Shown: piece after piece, positions 12,686-30,445 of the stretch
Layout: each line of letters opens with the position of its first letter
Position numbering within the stretch: the first letter of the stretch is position 1
NCBI GenBank assembly: GCA_021800275.1
Contig: JAJYZB010000002.1
Span: 70,997-134,996, forward strand
Reading direction: 5' to 3'
Length of the DNA: 64,000 nt
Source of the DNA: a bacterium
Lineage (GTDB): Bacteria; Vulcanimicrobiota; JABDET01
Position numbers and translations under genes: made by a program
Notes under the pieces: model-generated
Databases searched by the model: none
The model's input: only the letters and a program-made list of their open reading frames with translations
Told to the model about the DNA's origin: nothing

Positions 12686-13873
12686 TTACTTCTGAATCAG
12701 TTCCAGATTTCCCCTTGGAAGAACCCAGTGTGTTCCATCTTTCAAAATCACTTCAGCGACCCTGACCTTAGCTTCGGTTTGAATGGTCTGCGGATCTGAG
12801 GGAAGAGCAGCAATTTTTGCAGTCTGCCCAAAATAAGGATCTCGAATAATGCGAACAGAGCTTCCCTCCTGCAGCATCATGCTCTCATGAGCATCATGCT
12901 CTTTTCCAGAAATCCCTTCATCCCGACTTTTTTCAGAAATCATTCCAACAAAAGTTGTTCCTTTTTCTCCTATCCCTTCTTCAAGATATGAAATGATCAC
13001 TTCAGGACGAATCACTCCCGCCCGTATCTGAGTGGTCCCATTGATTGCAACCTGCCTCCCTTCTGATTCTTTCAATAACCGAAAAGTTTTTTCTGCCATA
13101 GAAATCCTTCCAAATCCCTCGGTTAAAATGATCGTAATTCCCTTGTTTTCCCCTCCAGTTACAGCAACCCCTAAATCATACCCTAGAAAATCTCGAAGAT
13201 CCTGATCCTCAATTCCGCCAATAATGATCCCTTTAATCCCCAATTGTACTGCTTTTTGAAGAGCTTTCAGGGTGATGAGACTCCCCCCAAAAAGAATTTT
13301 TCCTAGAAAACTTGAATCTAAAGCTTTTTCATCCAAAATCTCATCTGGTTTATCAACAGCAGATTGTAAAACTCCCCAGGTCTCCCCTCCAATGCCAAAA
13401 ATCCCGTGAATATATGTTCCATAAGTTTTAATTACAACCCCTTCACCAGGGATAACTTCTTCCACAATTCCACTCACATACGCTTTCATTTCAAGGGGGA
13501 CAGGCTCTTGTCTTAATGTTATTTTTCCAGTAGCTTCTGAAATCGTTTCCACAAAACCTGAGACAGGAGATAAAAATTCAGATTTAAATAATCCAAACAA
13601 TCCGGGATTCTTGGCAATTAACTCCCCTTTACTGACGTGCTCTCCTTCTTTTTTTAAAAGATACTTCCGAACAGCTTTTGGATCAATCCCCAAATGATTT
13701 GCCACATTGACTAATTCCACATTTCCAGGAAGATGAGTTCTGGCAGCAGCAGTATCACTTTCCACTTTTTCTCCCAGTGAAACCAGAACCTCCCCTTTTA
13801 AAGGAAGCCGACGCTCTTTCCTAACAAGGGCGCGTTTAACAACTTTTAACCCAGGTGTATAGGCATTTCCCAT
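12686..13873 (-). CDS. Conserved hypothetical protein with a lipoyl/biotinyl-like hairpin segment
   Basis: 395 aa ORF with ATG start; 'GELIAKNPGLFGLFKSEFLSPVSGFVETI' resembles a barrel-sandwich hybrid; no family recognised. Confidence 0.4.
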   Translation of the reverse strand: MGNAYTPGLKVVKRALVRKERRLPLKGEVLVSLGEKVESDTAAARTHLPGNVELVNVANHLGIDPKAVRKYLLKKEGEHVSKGELIAKNPGLFGLFKSEFLSPVSGFVETISEATGKITLRQEPVPLEMKAYVSGIVEEVIPGEGVVIKTYGTYIHGIFGIGGETWGVLQSAVDKPDEILDEKALDSSFLGKILFGGSLITLKALQKAVQLGIKGIIIGGIEDQDLRDFLGYDLGVAVTGGENKGITIILTEGFGRISMAEKTFRLLKESEGRQVAINGTTQIRAGVIRPEVIISYLEEGIGEKGTTFVGMISEKSRDEGISGKEHDAHESMMLQEGSSVRIIRDPYFGQTAKIAALPSDPQTIQTEAKVRVAEVILKDGTHWVLPRGNLELIQK

Positions 13874-14086
13874 ATCAAGGTGAACAAGCCGCCATGACTG
13901 AGCTCTTGTACTCCATTTAAACTTTCGTTAAACCACGCATCAAAAATTTTCGCAAACCTTGCCCCTCCTCTTTCTACCGTATTTCGAGATCCAAAATCTT
14001 TCTCATTCTATATTGACACAAAGGGCTTCAGTCAGTGTCATTTTATCATCCTCCAAGGGTGAGTCTGTGAAACCTTCCATGTGCTA

Positions 14087-14503
14087 TTAGCCCGTTTTAA
14101 GAGTAGGCTCAAGTTCCGGATTAATGGCTTTCATGAGTTGATTGAGCTTTTCGATAGTAGGAATACTTCTACCCTGCTCGTAGCGCGCGTATGCATTCGG
14201 AGATTTTGAATCAAGCCTGTGCGCCATCTCCAGCAAGGTCAGATTGTGCGCTTCCCTCTGCCGTTTCAACATCAGGGCGAATAGTGTCCCTTCCTGGTTG
14301 GCGCCAATTGTAAAGCTCGACCCTGCAGATGGCCGCACGTCCACCTTAAAATCTTTTCTGCCGATCAAGACTTTAATTGCATCGGCAATCATCCAGTACG
14401 CGCTCTTTTTTGATGTGGCTTGTGTCATGATGTCTAGCAGTGGAACTTCGATCAACCAATAGCCGCTTCTTCTGTCTTTCCAAACACGTCCTTCAAATCT
14501 CAT
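14087..14503 (-). CDS. hicB: HicB-family antitoxin with C-terminal XRE-type helix-turn-helix
   Basis: N-terminal 'SGYWLIEVPLLDIMTQATSKKSAYWMIADAIKVLI' HicB fold signature; C-terminal 'LTLLEMAHRLDSKSPNAYARYEQGRSIPTIEKLNQLMKAI' HTH; GGGAGA RBS. Confidence 0.75.
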   Translation of the reverse strand: MRFEGRVWKDRRSGYWLIEVPLLDIMTQATSKKSAYWMIADAIKVLIGRKDFKVDVRPSAGSSFTIGANQEGTLFALMLKRQREAHNLTLLEMAHRLDSKSPNAYARYEQGRSIPTIEKLNQLMKAINPELEPTLKTG

Positions 14504-14714
14504 ATTTTTCTCCCTTCACTCCTGGATGTGCCTGGGCTTTTCGAAGGATTTTTCGGGCCAAGGGCTCGGCAATCTCCCTGTGTCGAGGAACAGGCTCTGT
14601 TTCTTTTCCGTTCGTCCATATTTCGTGATTCCCGCCTTCTCACGACAACCACCATCCGAAGGAGCTCAAGCAGCTTTCCAGGTCACGCTTCTTCACTAAA
14701 ATAATTTTACACAT
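14493..14714 (-). pseudogene. hicA: HicA mRNA-interferase toxin gene interrupted by an in-frame TGA at codon 25
   Basis: Minus-strand translation 'MCKIILVKKRDLESCLSSFGWWLS*EGGNHEIWTNGKETEPVPRHREIAEPLARKILRKAQAHPGVKGEKYEI'; the stop is plus 14640-14642 (tca); the 3' end overlaps the hicB start by 11 nt. Confidence 0.65.
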
Positions 14715-14726
14715 AAATGTGTAAAA
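14705..14726. promoter_or_regulatory. Perfect 10 bp inverted repeat (TTTTACACAT-AA-ATGTGTAAAA) overlapping the hicA start codon; candidate HicB operator
   Basis: Read directly from sequence; the right half-site contains the hicA ATG. Confidence 0.4.
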
Positions 14727-14850
14727 AGTTAAGAGTCCGAATCGAGTCATATATAATCTTACCACGGAGAGCATTATCGCGTCATAAATTTTCCCCTTTA
14801 TGTCAATGGAAGCAGCCAGGTGTATAGGCGTTTACCATTCGTTAACCCAT

Positions 14851-15336
14851 CTAAATCTCTCTAAAAAGTTTCTTCACTCCCACTATAAGAACACCCACTT
14901 TCCTCTCCCATACCTCTACTTCATAAGATTGAAACACGTTTTTTTCTGCAGGAGCTGTCCACTTCTTATCTTTCTCAAAAGGATACTCTGTGTTTCTCTT
15001 AGTCCATTTATCAGATGGAGCAGTTTGTTCCATTTCAAACAAAAACTTTTTCATTTCCTTAGAAAATAAGCGAGAAATACTGCCGCGAAGTTTTGGTGAA
15101 GATTCTGCTGCCCTTAAAATGCCTTGTATAAAACCTTTGAGAGCATGTGATGGCTTTATTTCTCCTACTGCCTTCAAAAAAAGAGCTTTGACAGCTTTTT
15201 CGCTAGCCTGCTGACAGTGAGCAGCTCGATAGCAAAGAGGAGTCAAAGGAAGACTATTTTTAATCTCAGCGACAAACTGATAATCGAATTCAGCCTGTTT
15301 TAAGAAAGCGCTGCTTTTCTCGCTGCGGCTGTTCAT
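14851..15336 (-). CDS. HEPN-domain protein
   Basis: 'CYRAAHCQQASEKAVKALFLKAVGEIKPSHALKGF' matches the HEPN core (QQAxEKAxKA...H). Confidence 0.6.
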   Translation of the reverse strand: MNSRSEKSSAFLKQAEFDYQFVAEIKNSLPLTPLCYRAAHCQQASEKAVKALFLKAVGEIKPSHALKGFIQGILRAAESSPKLRGSISRLFSKEMKKFLFEMEQTAPSDKWTKRNTEYPFEKDKKWTAPAEKNVFQSYEVEVWERKVGVLIVGVKKLFREI

Positions 15337-15718
15337 CTTTATAAAGTCTAGAAATTAAATTTTTACACTCAGGATCTTGATATAAAATTTCAAACTGATC
15401 GCTTCTAATTTCCCTGATGATACTCCACTTTTCTTCCAGTGAACGATCAAAATCTTGCTTTGAGAGTAAAGAGAGTTTAAGCAGACCATGAAGAACTATA
15501 AAATCACTGGAGGAACCAAATGAAACATGATAAATTTCTTTTTCATTTGCGACGTTTGGAAACTGATCAAGCACTTCAAGCAAATAAACATTCTTTTTAT
15601 CATGAATTTTGTACCAGACAGCAGCAAGAAGGGGGCTGTCATCCAATCTTTTATGTCTCCTTATTAATTTCTTTAAATGCGTTTTTTGAAAATTATAAAA
15701 CGCGTTGTCATCTTGCAT
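15290..15718 (-). CDS. Hypothetical protein immediately upstream of and overlapping the HEPN gene (possible cognate partner)
   Basis: 142 aa, ATG start 21 nt after the upstream gene's stop; 47 nt overlap with the HEPN ORF; 'VSFGSSSDFIVL' only loosely resembles a nucleotidyltransferase motif. Confidence 0.35.
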   Translation of the reverse strand: MQDDNAFYNFQKTHLKKLIRRHKRLDDSPLLAAVWYKIHDKKNVYLLEVLDQFPNVANEKEIYHVSFGSSSDFIVLHGLLKLSLLSKQDFDRSLEEKWSIIREIRSDQFEILYQDPECKNLISRLYKDEQPQREKQRFLKTG

Positions 15719-15739
15719 TGACTCACCATCCTCTTTTTT

Positions 15740-17545
15740 TCAATTCGCTCCAGCATCAGGGTAAACCTTTAACACACGATTCCACTCATTCAATTTTTCA
15801 ATTCTGTCAGATTTATTTTTAGGAAGAGAAAAAGGGCGTCCTCTCCCATCTAAAATAATCCCCACAGCCCCTCCCTTTACTTCAGTTTCAAAGGCTTCCC
15901 CTTTTCCTTTTCCGCAGTCTATCCCAGAGGCTGGCTGCAGAAAAACTTTTGCAGTCTCCCCTATTCCTAAAGGAATACACTGCAGGGTTCTCCTGTTTAA
16001 TTCAAGTTCTTCAATTTTTCCATTCTTAAACTGAATTCGAATTTTAGCCAGAGGTTTCCCCTCTTTCACTTCTCCAACAGGGGAGATGCAGGTTCCAAGC
16101 CAGATCAAGCAGTCTTTCTCAAAAACCTGTTCTGCTGCTTCAGGATGAACCTGACTTAAAACTCCTAATTGAGGCATCATGAAAATACTGTCCACAGTTA
16201 AAAAAGTGACTCCTTCAGGGAGATAGGCATCTATCATCATTAAAGCTGCTTGAGAGCGCCTGGGGGCATGACTTAAAACTCCGCCGCTGCCGATCAGCAT
16301 ATCCAGTTCCATCATTTTAATCAGAGTTTCTCCAGACTCGGTTTGAGCAAATGCATCCGAAATATTTCTCTCCTGCTGCACCCCTTTTAATCCAACTGCT
16401 AATAATTTATGCTGCTCAAATGAGAGCCTTAAAGCCTCTCTACAGACTGCCTGCTCTACAATCAATTCTTCCAGCAGCTGAGGGATTGTGGTCGGACGAA
16501 TCATTTTGTTTTTAATCTTATTTCGCAGCTCTTTTTCATTTAAATCAAAAGGTACCCACTGCAGAATCTTTTCAAGACCTGACTCTTTAAACACATTGGA
16601 TATCGAATAACTCATTCCTAAATTCGCGCTGACTGTGCGATTGTAAACATGATGAAAAACCGAAAAAACATCTGTAGTTGCCCCTCCAATATCAGCTCCC
16701 AGCACATTCATTTTATGTTTTTCAGCAATTTTCTGCATCAAAAGTCCAACAGCAGCAGGAGTTGGCATAATAGGGACATCAGTCCATTCCATCAGATTTT
16801 TATAACCAGGGGCATGAGCCATCACATGATTTAAAAAAAGCGCCTGAATGCTCTGACGAGCAGGAGCTAAATTTTCTGTTTTATCTGTAGGTCTTAAATT
16901 GTCAGTAATTTGAAGAGCAGTTTTATGATCCAGAATCTGTTTTACACTTTCTCTTGCCTCTATGTTTCCTGCATAAATCACAGGCAGCTCATAGCCGGAT
17001 CCGAGTCTTGGCTTAGGATCCGCTGCAGAGATCAATTGTGCAGCTTCCACCACATGAGAAACAGTCCCTCCATCCATTCCTCCTGATAAAAGAATCATAT
17101 CCGGTCTTAGAGATCGAATTCTTTCAATTCTCTGGTGAGGAACTCTGCCATCATTGGCAGCTGTCACATCCATCACAATAGCTCCAGCCCCTAAGGCTGC
17201 TCGAGCAGCTGATTCAGCAGAAATCTCTTTCACAACTCCTGATACCAGCATCTGCAGCCCACCTCCAGCGCTGGAGGTGGATACATAGAGATCCACCCCC
17301 TCATTTCCTGTTTGAGGTTTGATGATTTTCTCGTTTTTTAAAAGAGGTCTGCCAGCTAATTCTTCTACTTCAGTGATCGCGTTAATAACTCCACGAGTCA
17401 CATCTTCCACAGGAGCTTCTACTGTTGTCGGAGCTTCTCCGCGAGCCACTAAACGGTACTCTTCCCCTTTTTTGGCGATTAAAATCGCTTTAGTGGTAGT
17501 GGAGCCGCAGTCTGTGGCAAGGATGCTGCAGATTTCTGGTTTCAA
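15740..17545 (-). CDS. ASKHA-fold ATPase-like protein of the GlmL/MutL (glutamate-mutase accessory) family, function unknown
   Basis: 601 aa; N-terminal 'ILATDCGSTTTKAILI', 'ILLSGGMDGG' and 'LGADIGGATTDVFSV' phosphate-binding-like motifs; family assignment from memory. Confidence 0.45.
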   Translation of the reverse strand: MKPEICSILATDCGSTTTKAILIAKKGEEYRLVARGEAPTTVEAPVEDVTRGVINAITEVEELAGRPLLKNEKIIKPQTGNEGVDLYVSTSSAGGGLQMLVSGVVKEISAESAARAALGAGAIVMDVTAANDGRVPHQRIERIRSLRPDMILLSGGMDGGTVSHVVEAAQLISAADPKPRLGSGYELPVIYAGNIEARESVKQILDHKTALQITDNLRPTDKTENLAPARQSIQALFLNHVMAHAPGYKNLMEWTDVPIMPTPAAVGLLMQKIAEKHKMNVLGADIGGATTDVFSVFHHVYNRTVSANLGMSYSISNVFKESGLEKILQWVPFDLNEKELRNKIKNKMIRPTTIPQLLEELIVEQAVCREALRLSFEQHKLLAVGLKGVQQERNISDAFAQTESGETLIKMMELDMLIGSGGVLSHAPRRSQAALMMIDAYLPEGVTFLTVDSIFMMPQLGVLSQVHPEAAEQVFEKDCLIWLGTCISPVGEVKEGKPLAKIRIQFKNGKIEELELNRRTLQCIPLGIGETAKVFLQPASGIDCGKGKGEAFETEVKGGAVGIILDGRGRPFSLPKNKSDRIEKLNEWNRVLKVYPDAGAN

Positions 17546-17619: not shown

Positions 17620-18270
17620 CTAATTTTCTAAAATTAAAATTCCTTCTCGAATTGCATATTTGATCAGTTCTGTTCGATTGTGCAGATTCAATTTTTCCAT
17701 GATATGATATCTGTGGGTCTGGACAGTTTTTACAGAAACAAACAATTGATCCGCAATCTCCTGATTTGATTTTCCATCCGCTAAAAGCTTTAAAACTTCT
17801 AATTCACGAGGGCTTAACGTTCGCTGCATAGAAGCTAATGTTTCCCCTGATGCGCACCCTTTTAAAAGAGTTCGTGTTAATGAAGGAGAAAAGTAAAGAT
17901 CCCCCTCATAAGCTGTAAAAATAGCTGAAATCAGCTCCTCTCGATTCGTTCCTTTTAAAATATATCCTGAACTCCCTGCTTGAACAGCTGAAAAAAAATA
18001 GTATTCTGACTCATATTGAGTCAGAATTAAAATCTTAATCTCTGGATAAAGTTTTTTAATGGTTTGAGTGGCTTTTAATCCATTCAAAATAGGCATCCCA
18101 ATATCCATTAAAATAACATCTGGCTTCAATCTTCCCGCCAGCTCCACTGCTTCTTCTCCATGGGAAGCTTTTCCAATGACTGAAATTTCAGGTTCCCGTG
18201 ACAGCAGACTTTCAAGCCCTTCCCTTAAAATCGTATGATCATCAGCTATCAGCACTTTAATCATGGACAA
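17620..18270 (-). CDS. Two-component response regulator, NarL/LuxR family
   Basis: REC domain ('VLIADDH...DVILMDIGMP') plus LuxR HTH ('LSPRELEVLKLLADGKSNQEIADQLFVSVKTVQTH'). Confidence 0.85.
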   Translation of the reverse strand: MSMIKVLIADDHTILREGLESLLSREPEISVIGKASHGEEAVELAGRLKPDVILMDIGMPILNGLKATQTIKKLYPEIKILILTQYESEYYFFSAVQAGSSGYILKGTNREELISAIFTAYEGDLYFSPSLTRTLLKGCASGETLASMQRTLSPRELEVLKLLADGKSNQEIADQLFVSVKTVQTHRYHIMEKLNLHNRTELIKYAIREGILILEN

Positions 18271-19395
18271 TCACTTCCTTTTTTGAAAGTTGCTCTGCTG
18301 CTCTGATGAAGAAAGCCCTGAATCTCCTGCAGGGAAAACAGCAGAAGGAAGAAAAACCTTTATTGAAGCGCCTCTGTTTATGGAAGAGTGCACTTCAAAG
18401 ATTCCTGAGAGTAAAGAAGCCCTTTCTGCGATTCCTAAAAGTCCCATACCCTGACTTGTTTTTCGAGCTGTTTCGACATCAAATCCAATGCCATTATCTT
18501 CAACTTTTAACATCACTCCATCGGGCTGAAAACAGAGTCGTACTGAAACTTTTGTCGCTTTAGCGTGCTTCATAATATTATTCGCAATCTCCTGAGAAAT
18601 CCGATAAACTGCAACTTCTGCAGCATCAGACAAAAGAATCTCCTTTCCTTCTGTGGCAAAATCTGTGTGGATTCCATTTTTTCCTAATTCTTCTCGAAAA
18701 AGTGACAAGAGTGCCTGTTTCAGCCCCATGTCTTCCAGCAGCATAGGACGTAGATTAAAAACCAGGTGCCTCAGTTCTTTTAAATCTTGATCAATCACTT
18801 GTTTCACCTGTGCCAAAGTCATTTTACACGAATCCAAGACTGAAGAATCAAGAGGAGCAGAAATGAGCAGTTCCACTTCTTCAATCCGCATTCTGAGGGT
18901 GGTCAGCCCCTGCATGGTTTCATCATGAAGATCACGAGCAATCCGCCGGCGTTCTTCTTCCTGCGCAAAAATCAATCTCTCAGCTAACAGATGAGATCTC
19001 TGTCTCTCTAAATTGAGAACATCCAGCATTTGATTTAAAGATCGAACACACAAATTGACTAAAGGTCCTGATGCAGGATGAGAAGCAGCGCGAAAATTTA
19101 AATCACCTTTTGCCACCTGATCCATGGCTTGAGATAAAGAACGGAGTGGAGCAAGAACCATTTTAACAAACCAGGAGCTTAACCAAAGGGTTCCTGCAGC
19201 AGATAAAACAATCAACAAAATCCCCTGACTATGGGTTAAAGGAAGACCTCTCATTCCAATGAATACTAAAAAACACCAGAACAAAACAATAAAAAAATTG
19301 GCCCAGAAAATTTTCTTGGATGTGTCCAGTCTTTTAAACCACTGCAGAAATTCTGTCGAATCATCCAAAGAAGAAATCTTTTTAGAATCTGTCAT
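18271..19395 (-). CDS. Sensor histidine kinase (HisKA_3/NarX-type) with N-terminal TM segments
   Basis: 'ERRRIARDLHDETMQGLTTL' H-box, 'EDNGIGFD' and 'GMGLLGIAERA' HATPase motifs; directly abuts the response regulator gene. Confidence 0.8.
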   Translation of the reverse strand: MTDSKKISSLDDSTEFLQWFKRLDTSKKIFWANFFIVLFWCFLVFIGMRGLPLTHSQGILLIVLSAAGTLWLSSWFVKMVLAPLRSLSQAMDQVAKGDLNFRAASHPASGPLVNLCVRSLNQMLDVLNLERQRSHLLAERLIFAQEEERRRIARDLHDETMQGLTTLRMRIEEVELLISAPLDSSVLDSCKMTLAQVKQVIDQDLKELRHLVFNLRPMLLEDMGLKQALLSLFREELGKNGIHTDFATEGKEILLSDAAEVAVYRISQEIANNIMKHAKATKVSVRLCFQPDGVMLKVEDNGIGFDVETARKTSQGMGLLGIAERASLLSGIFEVHSSINRGASIKVFLPSAVFPAGDSGLSSSEQQSNFQKRK

Positions 19396-27708: not shown

Positions 27709-28131
27709 GTGAAAATGCAACCAAAGAAAAAAGTAAAAAAGGGTCCTCTTTTGTTAAAAGCCGTCAAAAAGAGACCAGGGCAAAAGTCAGATCCTGAGAG
27801 TTCTGCCTCAAATTTTACAAAGAACGATTTATTTGGGATAAAAGACTGCCTCGGAATCTCTGATAAAGAACTAGCTCAAATCCTTTTAATTGAGCCTGAA
27901 GTCTTAACAGAACCTGATTTTAAAAACATTCCTATTTCCAGAATCGCTGATCTGCAGAAGGTCGTCAGCAGGGCTGTCGAAATCTTTACTTTAAAAGGAA
28001 TGAGTGAGTGGTTTCATCAACCCCATCCTGAACTCGAGGATCAGTCCCCTCTGGAAGTTTTGAGAGCGCCAGAAGGGGATCAAAAAATTCTGCAGCTTCT
28101 TGCAGCAATTGAATGGGGGGTACCTGTATGA
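27709..28131 (+). CDS. Xre-like antitoxin with DUF2384 (MbcA/ParS-type) toxin-binding domain
   Basis: C-terminal 'WFHQPHPELEDQSPLEVLRAPEGDQKILQLLAAIEWGV' matches the DUF2384 signature; stop overlaps the downstream RES gene start. Confidence 0.65.
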   Translation: MKMQPKKKVKKGPLLLKAVKKRPGQKSDPESSASNFTKNDLFGIKDCLGISDKELAQILLIEPEVLTEPDFKNIPISRIADLQKVVSRAVEIFTLKGMSEWFHQPHPELEDQSPLEVLRAPEGDQKILQLLAAIEWGVPV

Positions 28132-28703
28132 ATATTTTAATGCAGGAAGGAACATTTTACCGAATTGTCATAGGCTGCCGCAGAAAAGAGATTCATAAGC
28201 CTGCCGAGAACTTAATTTTCGGAGGACGATTTACCCCCCCAGAACTTTCCAATACTCTTTATTTAAGCTCTTCTGTTCAAGGATGTCTGGAAGAAATTCG
28301 ATTTAGAATCGGAGGGGATCTAAGAAAAGTTAAACCTCTTGTTTTAGGAACTTTTCAGACGCGATTTTCAAAAATATTAGATTTAACAGATGAAGCTGTT
28401 GTTAAAGTTTTTTTAGGAGATAATCACAGTAAAATTTTTTCCTCAAACTCTGCAAATTACGAGACAACACACCGTCTTGCAGCAGCAGCTGTAAAACGCG
28501 GTTTTGAAGGAATTTTGTATCATTCTGCTGTTTCTCCAGAACATAAAAATCTGGCTGTTTTTTTAGACAATCTGGGTCCAAATTCGTTTATTAAGAAGAT
28601 TTCTATAGATAAAGTGAATATCGGGTGTCAGCCTTTGTCTGGCCGCAGCGCCTGCAGCAGATCTTCAGAATCGGTCTGGCAGAAGGTTTATCAGGTTATT
28701 TAA
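28128..28703 (+). CDS. RES-domain toxin (MbcT/ParT-like NAD+-targeting family)
   Basis: 'GGRFTPPELSNTLYLSSSVQGCLEEI' and 'GILYHSAVSP' carry the R, E and S positions; ATG at 28128 overlaps the antitoxin stop (ATGA). Confidence 0.7.
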   Translation: MNILMQEGTFYRIVIGCRRKEIHKPAENLIFGGRFTPPELSNTLYLSSSVQGCLEEIRFRIGGDLRKVKPLVLGTFQTRFSKILDLTDEAVVKVFLGDNHSKIFSSNSANYETTHRLAAAAVKRGFEGILYHSAVSPEHKNLAVFLDNLGPNSFIKKISIDKVNIGCQPLSGRSACSRSSESVWQKVYQVI

Positions 28704-30046: not shown

Positions 30047-30445
30047 TTAAGTTTGCTCAAATCGCCAGAAGTCGCTCGGTTTAATCACAGGAATTCCATC
30101 AAAATTCTTAAGAGCCAGTAAATCGCTGTCGCCACTGATAAGACAGTCAGAGCCTCCATTCCGCCCTGCAGCTAGAATCCCATTATCATCCGGATCTCGG
30201 CAAATAGAAGGGATAGGTAATTTAACATCCACTAGGCAGGCATTTTCTCTAATAAATTCCAAAAACAGACCTACATTATCTTTTGAAAAGTGAAGTTTAT
30301 TCATTAATTTGTCTAAAATCTCATGCAGAATCTGCTGGGATGTCAAAAGAGAATGATTTAACAGGCAGTGGTCCAGAAGTTCGCTGCACGCGCCTGGAGA
30401 AACAAATGCAGCAATCCAGATATTAGTGTCAAAGAAAACTTTCAC
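30047..30445 (-). CDS. PIN-domain ribonuclease toxin (VapC-like)
   Basis: 'KVFFDTNIWIAAF', 'RDPDDNGILAAG', 'DCLISGDSDLL' PIN acidic motifs; GTG start overlapping the upstream reading frame. Confidence 0.75.
   Translation of the reverse strand: MKVFFDTNIWIAAFVSPGACSELLDHCLLNHSLLTSQQILHEILDKLMNKLHFSKDNVGLFLEFIRENACLVDVKLPIPSICRDPDDNGILAAGRNGGSDCLISGDSDLLALKNFDGIPVIKPSDFWRFEQT

What the first reader, a model, noticed from the sequence alone, without database searches (positions are those of the whole stretch)
14851..15718. HEPN-domain gene with an overlapping upstream partner at the end of a long co-directional gene string
A clear HEPN protein (QQASEKAVKAL...H) is preceded by a 142 aa ORF that overlaps it by 47 nt. 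The pair follows the sensor kinase, response regulator and GlmL-like genes on the same strand with only a 21 nt gap, and is followed by hicAB. HEPN domains are RNases in toxin-antitoxin and abortive-infection systems. The partner lacks a recognisable nucleotidyltransferase motif, so it may be an unusual cognate.
Basis: partly seen in the sequence, partly recalled or inferred. Interest (0 to 1): 0.5.

Follow-up and report, generated by a model that had tools for sequence, protein, structure and literature searches.

The report
HEPN toxin with motif-less nucleotidyltransferase-fold partner
Two overlapping small genes form a self-contained, widely conserved toxin-antitoxin-like cassette (a HEPN protein plus a partner with a nucleotidyltransferase fold but none of that enzyme's signature motifs) that has been inserted into a housekeeping operon; it is a divergent variant of the known HEPN-MNT system, not a new kind of system.

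Summary
On the minus strand, a 142-aa ORF (15290-15718) overlaps a 161-aa HEPN gene (14851-15336) by 47 nt, 21 nt after a GlmL-like gene.

- **HEPN:** it passes Pfam PF05168 (28.2 bits, cut-off 22).
- **Partner:** it has no Pfam, NCBIfam, PADLOC or PHROGs match, but belongs to a family of at least 66 cluster representatives. Its AlphaFold model (pLDDT 90) matches Pol-beta-type nucleotidyltransferases in three structure libraries, including HEPN-neutralising MNT antitoxins. The catalytic GSX10DXD signature is absent in 0 of 102 family members.
- **Co-conservation:** all 35 genomes with this HEPN subfamily carry the partner gene immediately upstream, usually overlapping by 1-8 nt.
- **Decay:** in four lineages the HEPN gene is deleted or truncated while the partner stays intact. 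The reverse was not seen.
- **Insertion:** in six related loci the GlmL-like gene directly abuts the 395-aa gene. The 1.87-kb segment carrying this pair and hicA*/hicB is therefore an insertion.

Best reading: a divergent HEPN/MNT-fold toxin-antitoxin cassette, probably neutralised by binding rather than AMPylation. The HEPN lacks a canonical Rx4-6H motif, so RNase activity is inferred, not shown. Novelty: a new variant of a known kind. Interest is moderate to low.

The parts
15290..15718 (-). Partner gene (142 aa): predicted antitoxin with a Pol-beta/MNT-type nucleotidyltransferase fold and no GSX10DXD motif. Family invariants are H22, A33 and E48; position 89 is acidic (E in 97%, D in the window copy). 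The C-terminal tail (about residues 128-142) is a low-confidence extension that creates the unusually long 47-nt overlap.
14851..15336 (-). HEPN gene (161 aa): predicted toxin of the classical PF05168 ('HEPN-T') type. Subfamily invariants are Q14, D18, Q42-Q43, E46-K47, K50, H64, P107, N115, E117, P119 and P129. The signature motif is [RK]-N-T-E-Y-P-[FY] (window R114-F120).
   Evidence: Pfam 28.2 bits against cut-off 22. 29 of 36 subfamily members hit PF05168. Weak profile hits to the HEPN structures 1o3u, 1ufb and 1wol. Conservation. Motif counts.
15290..15336 (-). 47-nt overlap of the two reading frames, implying translational coupling. Homologous pairs overlap by 1, 4 or 8 nt in 25 of 32 cases.
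13874..15739 (.). Inserted accessory segment between the GlmL-like gene and the 395-aa gene. It carries the partner-HEPN pair and hicA*/hicB.
   Evidence: In L070, L071, L072, L076, L077 and L079 (GlmL-like 50-72% identical), the 395-aa homologue follows the GlmL-like gene after about 1-185 nt. None of these loci has a HEPN, partner or HicB hit.
14493..14714 (-). hicA pseudogene (neighbouring cassette, not part of the pair): in-frame TGA at 14640-14642.
14087..14503 (-). hicB-like antitoxin gene with a C-terminal HTH_3 domain (neighbouring cassette, not part of the pair).
   Evidence: HTH_3, E 7e-10.

Best explanation
The two genes form a self-contained, horizontally acquired toxin-antitoxin-like cassette of the HEPN/MNT architecture. 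The upstream 142-aa protein is a highly diverged minimal nucleotidyltransferase-fold protein that acts as the antitoxin. The downstream 161-aa classical (PF05168-type) HEPN protein is the growth-inhibiting component, presumably an RNase or RNA-binding protein. The genes are translationally coupled by their overlap, so the antitoxin is made first. They appear to be transcribed by read-through from the host operon into which the cassette inserted, since the gap to the upstream gene is 21 nt and no promoter signal stands out. The partner family has lost the GS motif and one of the two beta2 carboxylates, and the window copy has also lost the beta3 carboxylate. Neutralisation is therefore most likely by stoichiometric binding to the HEPN protein (type II-like), not by the tyrosine AMPylation used by canonical MntA (type VII). 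What is shown: gene structure, HEPN family membership, the partner's fold, strict co-conservation, the asymmetric decay, and the insertion. What is inferred: toxicity, the RNA target, and the mode of neutralisation.
Against: No toxicity, RNase or binding data exist. The HEPN subfamily lacks a positionally conserved Rx4-6H motif (Rx4HxY in 0 of 37). Its arginine is only 83% conserved, and it is replaced by L, M or I in some intact pairs, including the closest relative L080. Catalytic RNase activity is therefore uncertain. The partner keeps invariant H22 and E48, and 75% of the family has a beta3 glutamate, so a derived enzymatic activity cannot be excluded. A 97%-conserved Tyr118 sits inside the HEPN signature motif, where canonical HepT is AMPylated. 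Residue-level structural superposition and a heterocomplex model could not be made. The HEPN model itself was poor (pLDDT 47). No match was found on plasmids, phages or viral contigs, so mobility is inferred from synteny only. Some of the 'degraded' HEPN copies (L011, L023/L024) may be long-read assembly frameshifts and were not counted.
Confidence: 0.6

Rival explanations
1. Type VII-like mechanism. The partner is an active but highly derived nucleotidyltransferase using a non-canonical site (E48 on beta2, E or H at position 64 on beta3, R or H at position 39, H22). It neutralises the HEPN by nucleotidylylating the conserved Tyr118 inside the N-T-E-Y-P motif, as MntA does to HepT.
For: The partner has the nucleotidyltransferase fold. 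E48 and H22 are invariant, and a beta3 glutamate is present in 75% of the family. Tyr118 is 97% conserved next to the HEPN signature residues. Canonical HepT is AMPylated on a Tyr adjacent to its active-site motif (PMC7641770).
Against: No GS motif and no DxD are present in 0 of 102 sequences. Even conservative D-to-E changes in DXD abolish MntA activity. The helix that follows the GS motif is replaced by a 7-residue hairpin loop in the model. The window copy has H, not E, at position 64. There is no sequence-level similarity to the one nucleotidyltransferase compared, a from-memory kanamycin nucleotidyltransferase sequence, and no match to Pfam/NCBIfam nucleotidyltransferase models.
Confidence: 0.25
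2. Not a toxin-antitoxin system. The two proteins are subunits of a split kanamycin-nucleotidyltransferase-like enzyme, with a nucleotidyltransferase domain plus a HEPN-type substrate-binding domain. The enzyme would modify a small molecule or another protein, and catalytic residues would come from both subunits.
For: The best structural matches include ANT(4'), ANT(4')-IIb, LinB, ANT(6) and 3c18. These are fusions of a nucleotidyltransferase domain with a HEPN-like helical domain. The HEPN subfamily has many invariant polar residues (D18, E46, H64, E117) that could complete an active site. The module often sits in housekeeping operons such as hemB-hemL and sufB-sufD.
Against: The decay is asymmetric: four lineages keep an intact partner ORF but have lost the HEPN, and the reverse is not seen. 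An obligate two-subunit enzyme should lose both. Distribution is patchy and the flanking genes differ between clades. The module is an insertion here, next to other toxin-antitoxin cassettes. The nucleotidyltransferase catalytic signature is missing.
Confidence: 0.08
3. Reversed polarity. The nucleotidyltransferase-fold partner is the toxin (as in MenT/AbiEii-type systems) and the HEPN protein is its antitoxin.
For: Nucleotidyltransferase-fold toxins exist, and this was the original prediction for MNT-HEPN modules before experiments, as recounted in PMC3710099.
Against: Lineages with a deleted HEPN and an intact partner ORF (L025-L028, L015, L021/L022) would then carry an unopposed toxin. The partner lacks the catalytic motifs. 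The upstream position is typical of antitoxins.
Confidence: 0.03

Closest known systems
HepT/MntA (HEPN/MNT) type VII toxin-antitoxin systems: Shewanella oneidensis SO_3166/SO_3165, Aphanizomenon HEPN-MNT, Legionella pneumophila HEPN-MNT
   Same: The architecture matches: a two-gene dyad with the nucleotidyltransferase-fold gene 5' of the HEPN gene, small overlapping ORFs and patchy distribution. The partner's predicted fold matches the solved MNT antitoxins (5yep_A, 7ae2_B, 8xeh_E, 6m6v, 7bxo). A conserved Tyr lies next to the HEPN signature motif.
   Different: Those HEPNs are the DUF86/PF01934 type with an RX4HXY motif, whereas this one is PF05168-type with [RK]NTEYP[FY] and an invariant His elsewhere (H64). 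Those MNTs match PF01909 and carry GSX10DXD. This partner matches no model and has neither GS nor DXD. AMPylation is therefore doubtful.
Classical HEPN (PF05168, 'HEPN-T' of Anantharaman et al. 2013) paired with MNT, e.g. TM0613 (1o3u), TT1696 (1ufb), ST1454-type (1wol)
   Same: It belongs to the same Pfam family and shares the 'QQxxEKxxKA' helix-2 motif. It gives weak profile hits to these structures. As PMC3710099 notes for HEPN-T, the canonical His of Rx4-6H is missing and a conserved His occurs elsewhere.
   Different: It forms a distinct subfamily with its own invariant N-x-E-Y-P motif and an obligatory partner family that is not a recognisable MNT at sequence level.
Kanamycin nucleotidyltransferase ANT(4') and related nucleotidyltransferase + HEPN-like fusion enzymes
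   Different: They are single-chain, catalytically active and confer antibiotic resistance.

Membership tests
HEPN domain, Pfam PF05168 (HEPN-T) | Match to the family HMM above the curated gathering score | tested here: met
   28.2 bits against cut-off 22, residues 22-92. 29 of 36 subfamily members match at E<=0.01.
HEPN domain, Pfam PF05168 (HEPN-T) | All-alpha four-helix up-down bundle | tested here: inconclusive
   The single-sequence AF2 model is all-helical but has pLDDT 47. Only weak profile hits to the HEPN structures 1o3u, 1ufb and 1wol (E 0.15-1.2).
HEPN superfamily RNases | Conserved Rx4-6H catalytic motif at the start of the last helix | tested here: not met
   No positionally conserved Rx4-6H, and Rx4HxY in 0 of 37. 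The equivalent motif is [RK]NTEYP[FY], with R in 83% and L, M or I in some. The invariant H64 lies elsewhere, as PMC3710099 describes for part of HEPN-T.
HEPN superfamily RNases | RNase activity or growth inhibition | not testable with these tools
   Needs expression and in vitro RNase assays.
HepT/MntA type VII TA (HEPN/MNT) | Nucleotidyltransferase-fold gene immediately 5' of the HEPN gene, co-directional | tested here: met
   In the window and in 35 of 35 genomes.
HepT/MntA type VII TA (HEPN/MNT) | Partner has the Pol-beta minimal nucleotidyltransferase fold | tested here: met
HepT/MntA type VII TA (HEPN/MNT) | Partner matches MNT sequence families (PF01909 NTP_transf_2 or relatives) | tested here: not met
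   No Pfam or NCBIfam hit for the window protein, and no nucleotidyltransferase family among the 65 homologues.
HepT/MntA type VII TA (HEPN/MNT) | GSX10DXD catalytic motif in the antitoxin | tested here: not met
   0 of 37 and 0 of 65. Only one beta2 carboxylate (E48) is conserved.
HepT/MntA type VII TA (HEPN/MNT) | RX4HXY motif with an acceptor tyrosine in the toxin | tested here: not met
   0 of 37. A different conserved Tyr (Y118, 97%) lies in the NTEYP motif.
HepT/MntA type VII TA (HEPN/MNT) | Covalent (oligo)AMPylation of the toxin by the antitoxin | not testable with these tools
   Needs mass spectrometry of the co-expressed proteins.
Toxin-antitoxin module (generic genomic criteria) | Two small adjacent or overlapping genes strictly co-conserved as a unit, in varying genomic contexts | tested here: met
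   35 of 35 adjacency. Only these two families are shared across 40 loci. Distance correlation r = 0.83. The segment is an insertion relative to six related loci.
Toxin-antitoxin module (generic genomic criteria) | Asymmetric decay: toxin gene lost or inactivated while the antitoxin is retained | tested here: met
   HEPN truncated or deleted with an intact partner in L015, L021/L022, L025/L026 and L027/L028. No HEPN without a partner among the 35 HEPN-anchored loci.
Toxin-antitoxin module (generic genomic criteria) | Toxicity of one component rescued by the other | not testable with these tools
   Needs an expression experiment.
   The HicA_toxin domain (34.3 bits against cut-off 27) is recovered only by reading through the in-frame TGA at 14640-14642. 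The stop is present in six contigs.

The most novel reading that the evidence does not exclude
The partner family would be a previously undescribed class of HEPN-cognate protein: a nucleotidyltransferase-fold pseudoenzyme that has given up catalysis and neutralises its HEPN purely by binding. Alternatively, it would be an enzyme with a new catalytic constellation (H22/E48). The N-x-E-Y-P/H64 HEPN subfamily would act through an active site different from the canonical Rx4-6H. Together they would form a distinct HEPN toxin-antitoxin subtype found mainly in Planctomycetota, Verrucomicrobiota, Armatimonadota and Myxococcota.
Probability: 0.35. Interest if true: 0.5.

Novelty: new variant of a known kind. 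Interest (0 to 1): 0.35.

Why it matters
HEPN/MNT is considered the most abundant toxin-antitoxin architecture in prokaryotes. Its accepted neutralisation mechanism, AMPylation by a GSX10DXD nucleotidyltransferase, was established on one branch (DUF86/PF01909). This family shows an evolutionary end-point in which the fold and gene order are kept but the catalytic signature is gone on the antitoxin side, and the canonical Rx4-6H is gone on the toxin side. If confirmed, it would be a natural test case for whether MNT antitoxins can work by binding alone. It would also give names to two unannotated or barely annotated families in poorly studied phyla. For genome annotation, the partner family (at least 66 representatives of 50%-identity clusters) is currently 'hypothetical protein' with no model in Pfam, NCBIfam, PADLOC or PHROGs. 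The practical gain is modest, since this is an incremental extension of a known system.

Tried and rejected
- **Word-indexed protein searches:** searches with either single protein found only the protein itself. The exhaustive HMMER search was needed to find the partner family.
- **Locus search with the partner alignment:** The search for related loci with A1 failed because no stretch was conserved enough. The HEPN alignment was used as the anchor instead.
- **Sequence searches against PDB:** the partner, alone or as a profile, gave only spurious hits to designed TIM barrels and DARPins.
- **hhalign against kanamycin nucleotidyltransferase:** The link is at fold level only.
- **Structure resources:** the afdb50 fold library was unavailable. 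The single-sequence model was too poor to use (pLDDT 47).
- **Mobile-element collections:** viral contigs, plasmids and phage genomes gave no relatives.
- **Other scans:** Rfam found nothing in the window. Promoter and terminator scans were not above shuffled expectation.
- **Rejected, chance ORF or overlap artefact:** both families are conserved.
- **Rejected, alternative genetic code explaining the hicA stop:** long standard-code ORFs run throughout the window.
- **Rejected, a third conserved component:** no third gene family is shared across loci. ABC and SufBD neighbours are clade-specific housekeeping genes.
- **Not counted as decay evidence:** L011 and L023/L024, because they may be frameshift errors in low-coverage long-read assemblies.

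Full report
**1. What is in the sequence**

Both genes are on the minus strand. The partner ORF runs 15290-15718 (142 aa). The HEPN ORF runs 14851-15336 (161 aa). They overlap by 47 nt (15290-15336).

The partner starts 21 nt after the stop of a 601-aa GlmL/MutL-family gene (15740-17545; PF13941, E 2e-124). That gene follows a LuxR-type response regulator (17620-18270) and a HisKA_3 kinase (18271-19395). A GAGGA Shine-Dalgarno-like element precedes the partner ATG (read).

The window is identical or nearly identical (0-1 mismatches in 1,710 nt) to contigs from ten independent assemblies of one uncultured organism, including the MAGs GCA_027371935.1 and GCA_027421905.1. The window's GC content is 41%.

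**2. The HEPN gene**

- It passes Pfam's curated threshold for PF05168 (28.2 bits against 22).
- It has no NCBIfam, PADLOC or PHROGs match.
- A profile of the subfamily gives weak hits to the classical HEPN crystal structures TM0613, TT1696 and 1wol.
- 29 of 36 subfamily members match PF05168 individually.
- In 37 aligned members the invariant residues are Q14, D18, Q42, Q43, E46, K47, K50, H64, P107, N115, E117, P119 and P129. Y118 is 97% conserved.

The canonical catalytic motif Rx4-6H is not conserved in position, and RX4HXY occurs in 0 of 37. The subfamily signature is [RK]-N-T-E-Y-P-[FY]. The arginine is present in only 83% of members and is replaced by L, M or I in some intact pairs, including the closest relative.

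This fits the description of 'HEPN-T (PF05168)' in Anantharaman et al. 2013 (PMC3710099). There the canonical His is often replaced and a conserved His elsewhere may contribute to activity. RNase activity is therefore an inference for this subfamily, not something the sequence demonstrates.

**3. The partner**

The partner has no hit in Pfam, NCBIfam, PADLOC, PHROGs or PDB sequences. The word-indexed search of 5.8 billion proteins found only the protein itself.

An exhaustive HMMER search of 1.84 billion cluster representatives found 66 relatives at E<=1e-3, almost all of them 100-180 aa long. None of 65 aligned members matches any nucleotidyltransferase Pfam family.

With that alignment AlphaFold2 gives a confident model (pLDDT 90.3, pTM 0.82). 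Its topology is alpha1(4-23)-beta1(30-36)-beta2(44-50)-beta3(63-67)-beta4(80-86)-alpha-alpha-beta5-alpha.

Three independent structure libraries place it in the Pol-beta nucleotidyltransferase fold:
- **Foldseek against PDB:** the same families, with E about 3e-3 and TM 0.45-0.55.
- **Foldseek against BFVD:** the top 9 hits are nearly all annotated nucleotidyltransferases.

The catalytic signature is gone, however. GSX10DXD occurs in 0 of 37 and 0 of 65 members. In the model, the GS motif and helix alpha2 of canonical nucleotidyltransferases are replaced by a 7-residue hairpin loop. Only one beta2 carboxylate is invariant (E48, in h-h-E-V). A beta3 glutamate is present in 75% of the family but is His in the window copy. 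Other invariants are H22 and A33, and position 89 is almost always acidic within a likely helix-capping 'LTNPxE' box. According to PMC7641770, even D-to-E changes in DXD abolish MntA activity.

**4. Co-conservation**

*Partner-anchored look-ups.* These covered ten distinct homologues. A HEPN gene of the same subfamily overlaps the 3' end of the partner gene in L012, L013/L014, L016, L017/L018, L019/L020 and L080-L082.

*HEPN-anchored scan.* A scan of one genome from each of 185,579 species returned 41 loci. In 35 the HEPN match is strong (67-248 bits per segment). In all 35 a partner-family gene lies immediately upstream on the same strand.

The other six loci are weak matches (27-29 bits, and one below threshold) to other HEPN families (Treponema, Ruminococcus and others) and have no partner.

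*Spacing and co-inheritance.*
- The gap between the genes is -8, -4 or -1 nt in 25 of 32 measurable pairs. The window's 47-nt overlap comes from a low-confidence C-terminal extension of its partner.
- Pairwise distances of the two proteins correlate (Pearson 0.83).
- No third gene family is shared across the 40 loci.

*Hosts.* The hosts are Planctomycetota (Isosphaeraceae, Gemmataceae, Tepidisphaeraceae, Phycisphaerales), Verrucomicrobiota, Armatimonadota, Sumerlaeota and Myxococcota. The Myxococcota include the cultured Polyangium fumosum DSM 14668 and Sorangium cellulosum So ceGT47.

**5. Polarity**

In four lineages the partner ORF is full length while the HEPN is damaged:
- L015 has a 3' truncation at profile position 119 that removes NTEYP. 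The same partner protein sits next to an intact HEPN in L016.
- L021/L022 have an internal deletion that leaves only positions 100-159. It is seen in two samples.
- L025/L026 retain only a 33-aa remnant.
- L027/L028 retain nothing detectable.

L011 and L023/L024 are also broken, but they could be long-read frameshift errors and are not counted.

Among the 35 HEPN-anchored loci, none has a HEPN without a partner. In one of them (L030) the partner is present but split across reading frames, and in two (L047, L056) the HEPN itself is split or lacks a start.

This asymmetry is what is expected if HEPN is the harmful component and the partner is its antidote. It argues against reversed polarity and against an obligate two-subunit enzyme.

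**6. Genomic context**

In six related metagenome loci the GlmL-like protein is 50-72% identical to the window's. There its gene is directly followed, after about 1-185 nt, by the homologue of the window's 395-aa protein (12686-13873). None of these loci has a HEPN, partner or HicB hit.

Window 13874-15739 is therefore an insertion carrying two cassettes: partner-HEPN and hicA*-hicB. The pair is not the natural end of the kinase/regulator/GlmL string. It interrupts a conserved gene pair.

hicA (14493-14714) has an in-frame TGA at 14640-14642. It reaches HicA_toxin 34.3 bits (cut-off 27) only when that stop is read through. The stop is present in six contigs. This is another case of a decayed toxin next to an intact antitoxin.

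The window also holds an Xre/ParS-RES pair (27709-28703) and a PIN_3 gene (30047-30445).

No relatives of the module were found in viral contigs, plasmids or phage genomes. Rfam found nothing in the window, and promoter and terminator scans were not above background.

**7. Mechanism**

*Best supported (confidence about 0.6).* This is a HEPN/MNT-architecture toxin-antitoxin cassette. The upstream nucleotidyltransferase-fold protein neutralises the HEPN protein. Expression is coupled by the overlap and probably driven by read-through from the host operon. Neutralisation is most likely by direct binding, because the nucleotidyltransferase signature is lost.

*Main rival (0.25).* The partner is a derived but still active transferase that modifies Tyr118.

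*Minor rivals.* A split kanamycin-nucleotidyltransferase-like enzyme (0.08) and reversed polarity (0.03).

*Shown:* gene structure, HEPN family membership, partner fold, absence of the motifs, co-conservation, decay asymmetry and the insertion.

*Inferred:* toxicity, the RNA target and the neutralisation chemistry.

**8. Comparison with what is known, and verdict**

The module works like HepT/MntA in architecture, but it fails three defining sequence tests of that family: a PF01909 match, GSX10DXD and RX4HXY. I therefore do not file it as a member of the characterised type VII family.

It is a member of the PF05168 HEPN family paired with an unannotated, motif-less MNT-fold family. That makes it a new variant of a known kind.

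A specialist would find it mildly interesting as a possible pseudoenzyme antitoxin and an unmodelled protein family, but not surprising. Interest is 0.35.

Noticed in passing
window 14493-14714 (-), stop codon at 14640-14642: hicA is interrupted by an in-frame TGA at the position where HicA proteins usually have Arg. Reading through it recovers a HicA_toxin domain (34.3 bits). The stop is identical in six independent contigs, while the hicB-like antitoxin gene (14087-14503) is intact. This is most likely a fixed toxin pseudogene.
   Followed up: partly
window 12686-13873 (-) and 15740-17545 (-); L070-L072, L076, L077, L079: The GlmL/MutL-family gene and the uncharacterised 395-aa protein (only weak RnfC_N-barrel and KOW hits) are directly adjacent in six related loci. 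They form a conserved gene pair of unknown function that is split in this genome by the 1.87-kb toxin-antitoxin insertion.
   Followed up: partly
window 27709-28131 (+), 28113-28703 (+), 30047-30445 (-): There are further toxin-antitoxin-type genes in the same 64 kb: an Xre/MbcA/ParS-type antitoxin overlapping a RES-domain toxin, and a PIN_3 (VapC-like) gene. The genome region is rich in toxin-antitoxin genes.
   Followed up: no
L017 2649-3281, L019 3001-3627 (proteins P0080-P0086): In some lineages the partner is 208-210 aa long, with an extra N-terminal region of about 75 aa that has no family match, fused in front of the nucleotidyltransferase-fold core.
   Followed up: no
L013, L017, L019, L030 (hemB-pair-hemL); L034, L041, L048, L067, L069 (sufB-pair-...-sufD): The module repeatedly sits co-directionally inside housekeeping operons with short gaps: between ALAD/hemB and the Aminotran_3/hemL gene, or between two SufBD genes. 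In the window it likewise sits behind the GlmL-like gene. It may rely on host-operon transcription. The upstream neighbour was co-directional in about 22 of 29 loci in a rough ORF-based count.
   Followed up: partly
L005 3519-4708 (GCA_027421905.1): In one MAG of the same organism the 395-aa gene is called as two ORFs (118 + 288 aa). This is either a frameshift variant or an assembly error.
   Followed up: no
L043 (labelled Alcaligenaceae) and L048 (labelled Janthinobacterium lividum): These two MAG contigs carry pairs that appear close to those of Isosphaeraceae and Capsulimonadaceae respectively; L048 also shares that clade's flanking gene families, whereas for L043 only sequence resemblance was noted. 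They are probably mis-binned contigs and not true proteobacterial occurrences.
   Followed up: no
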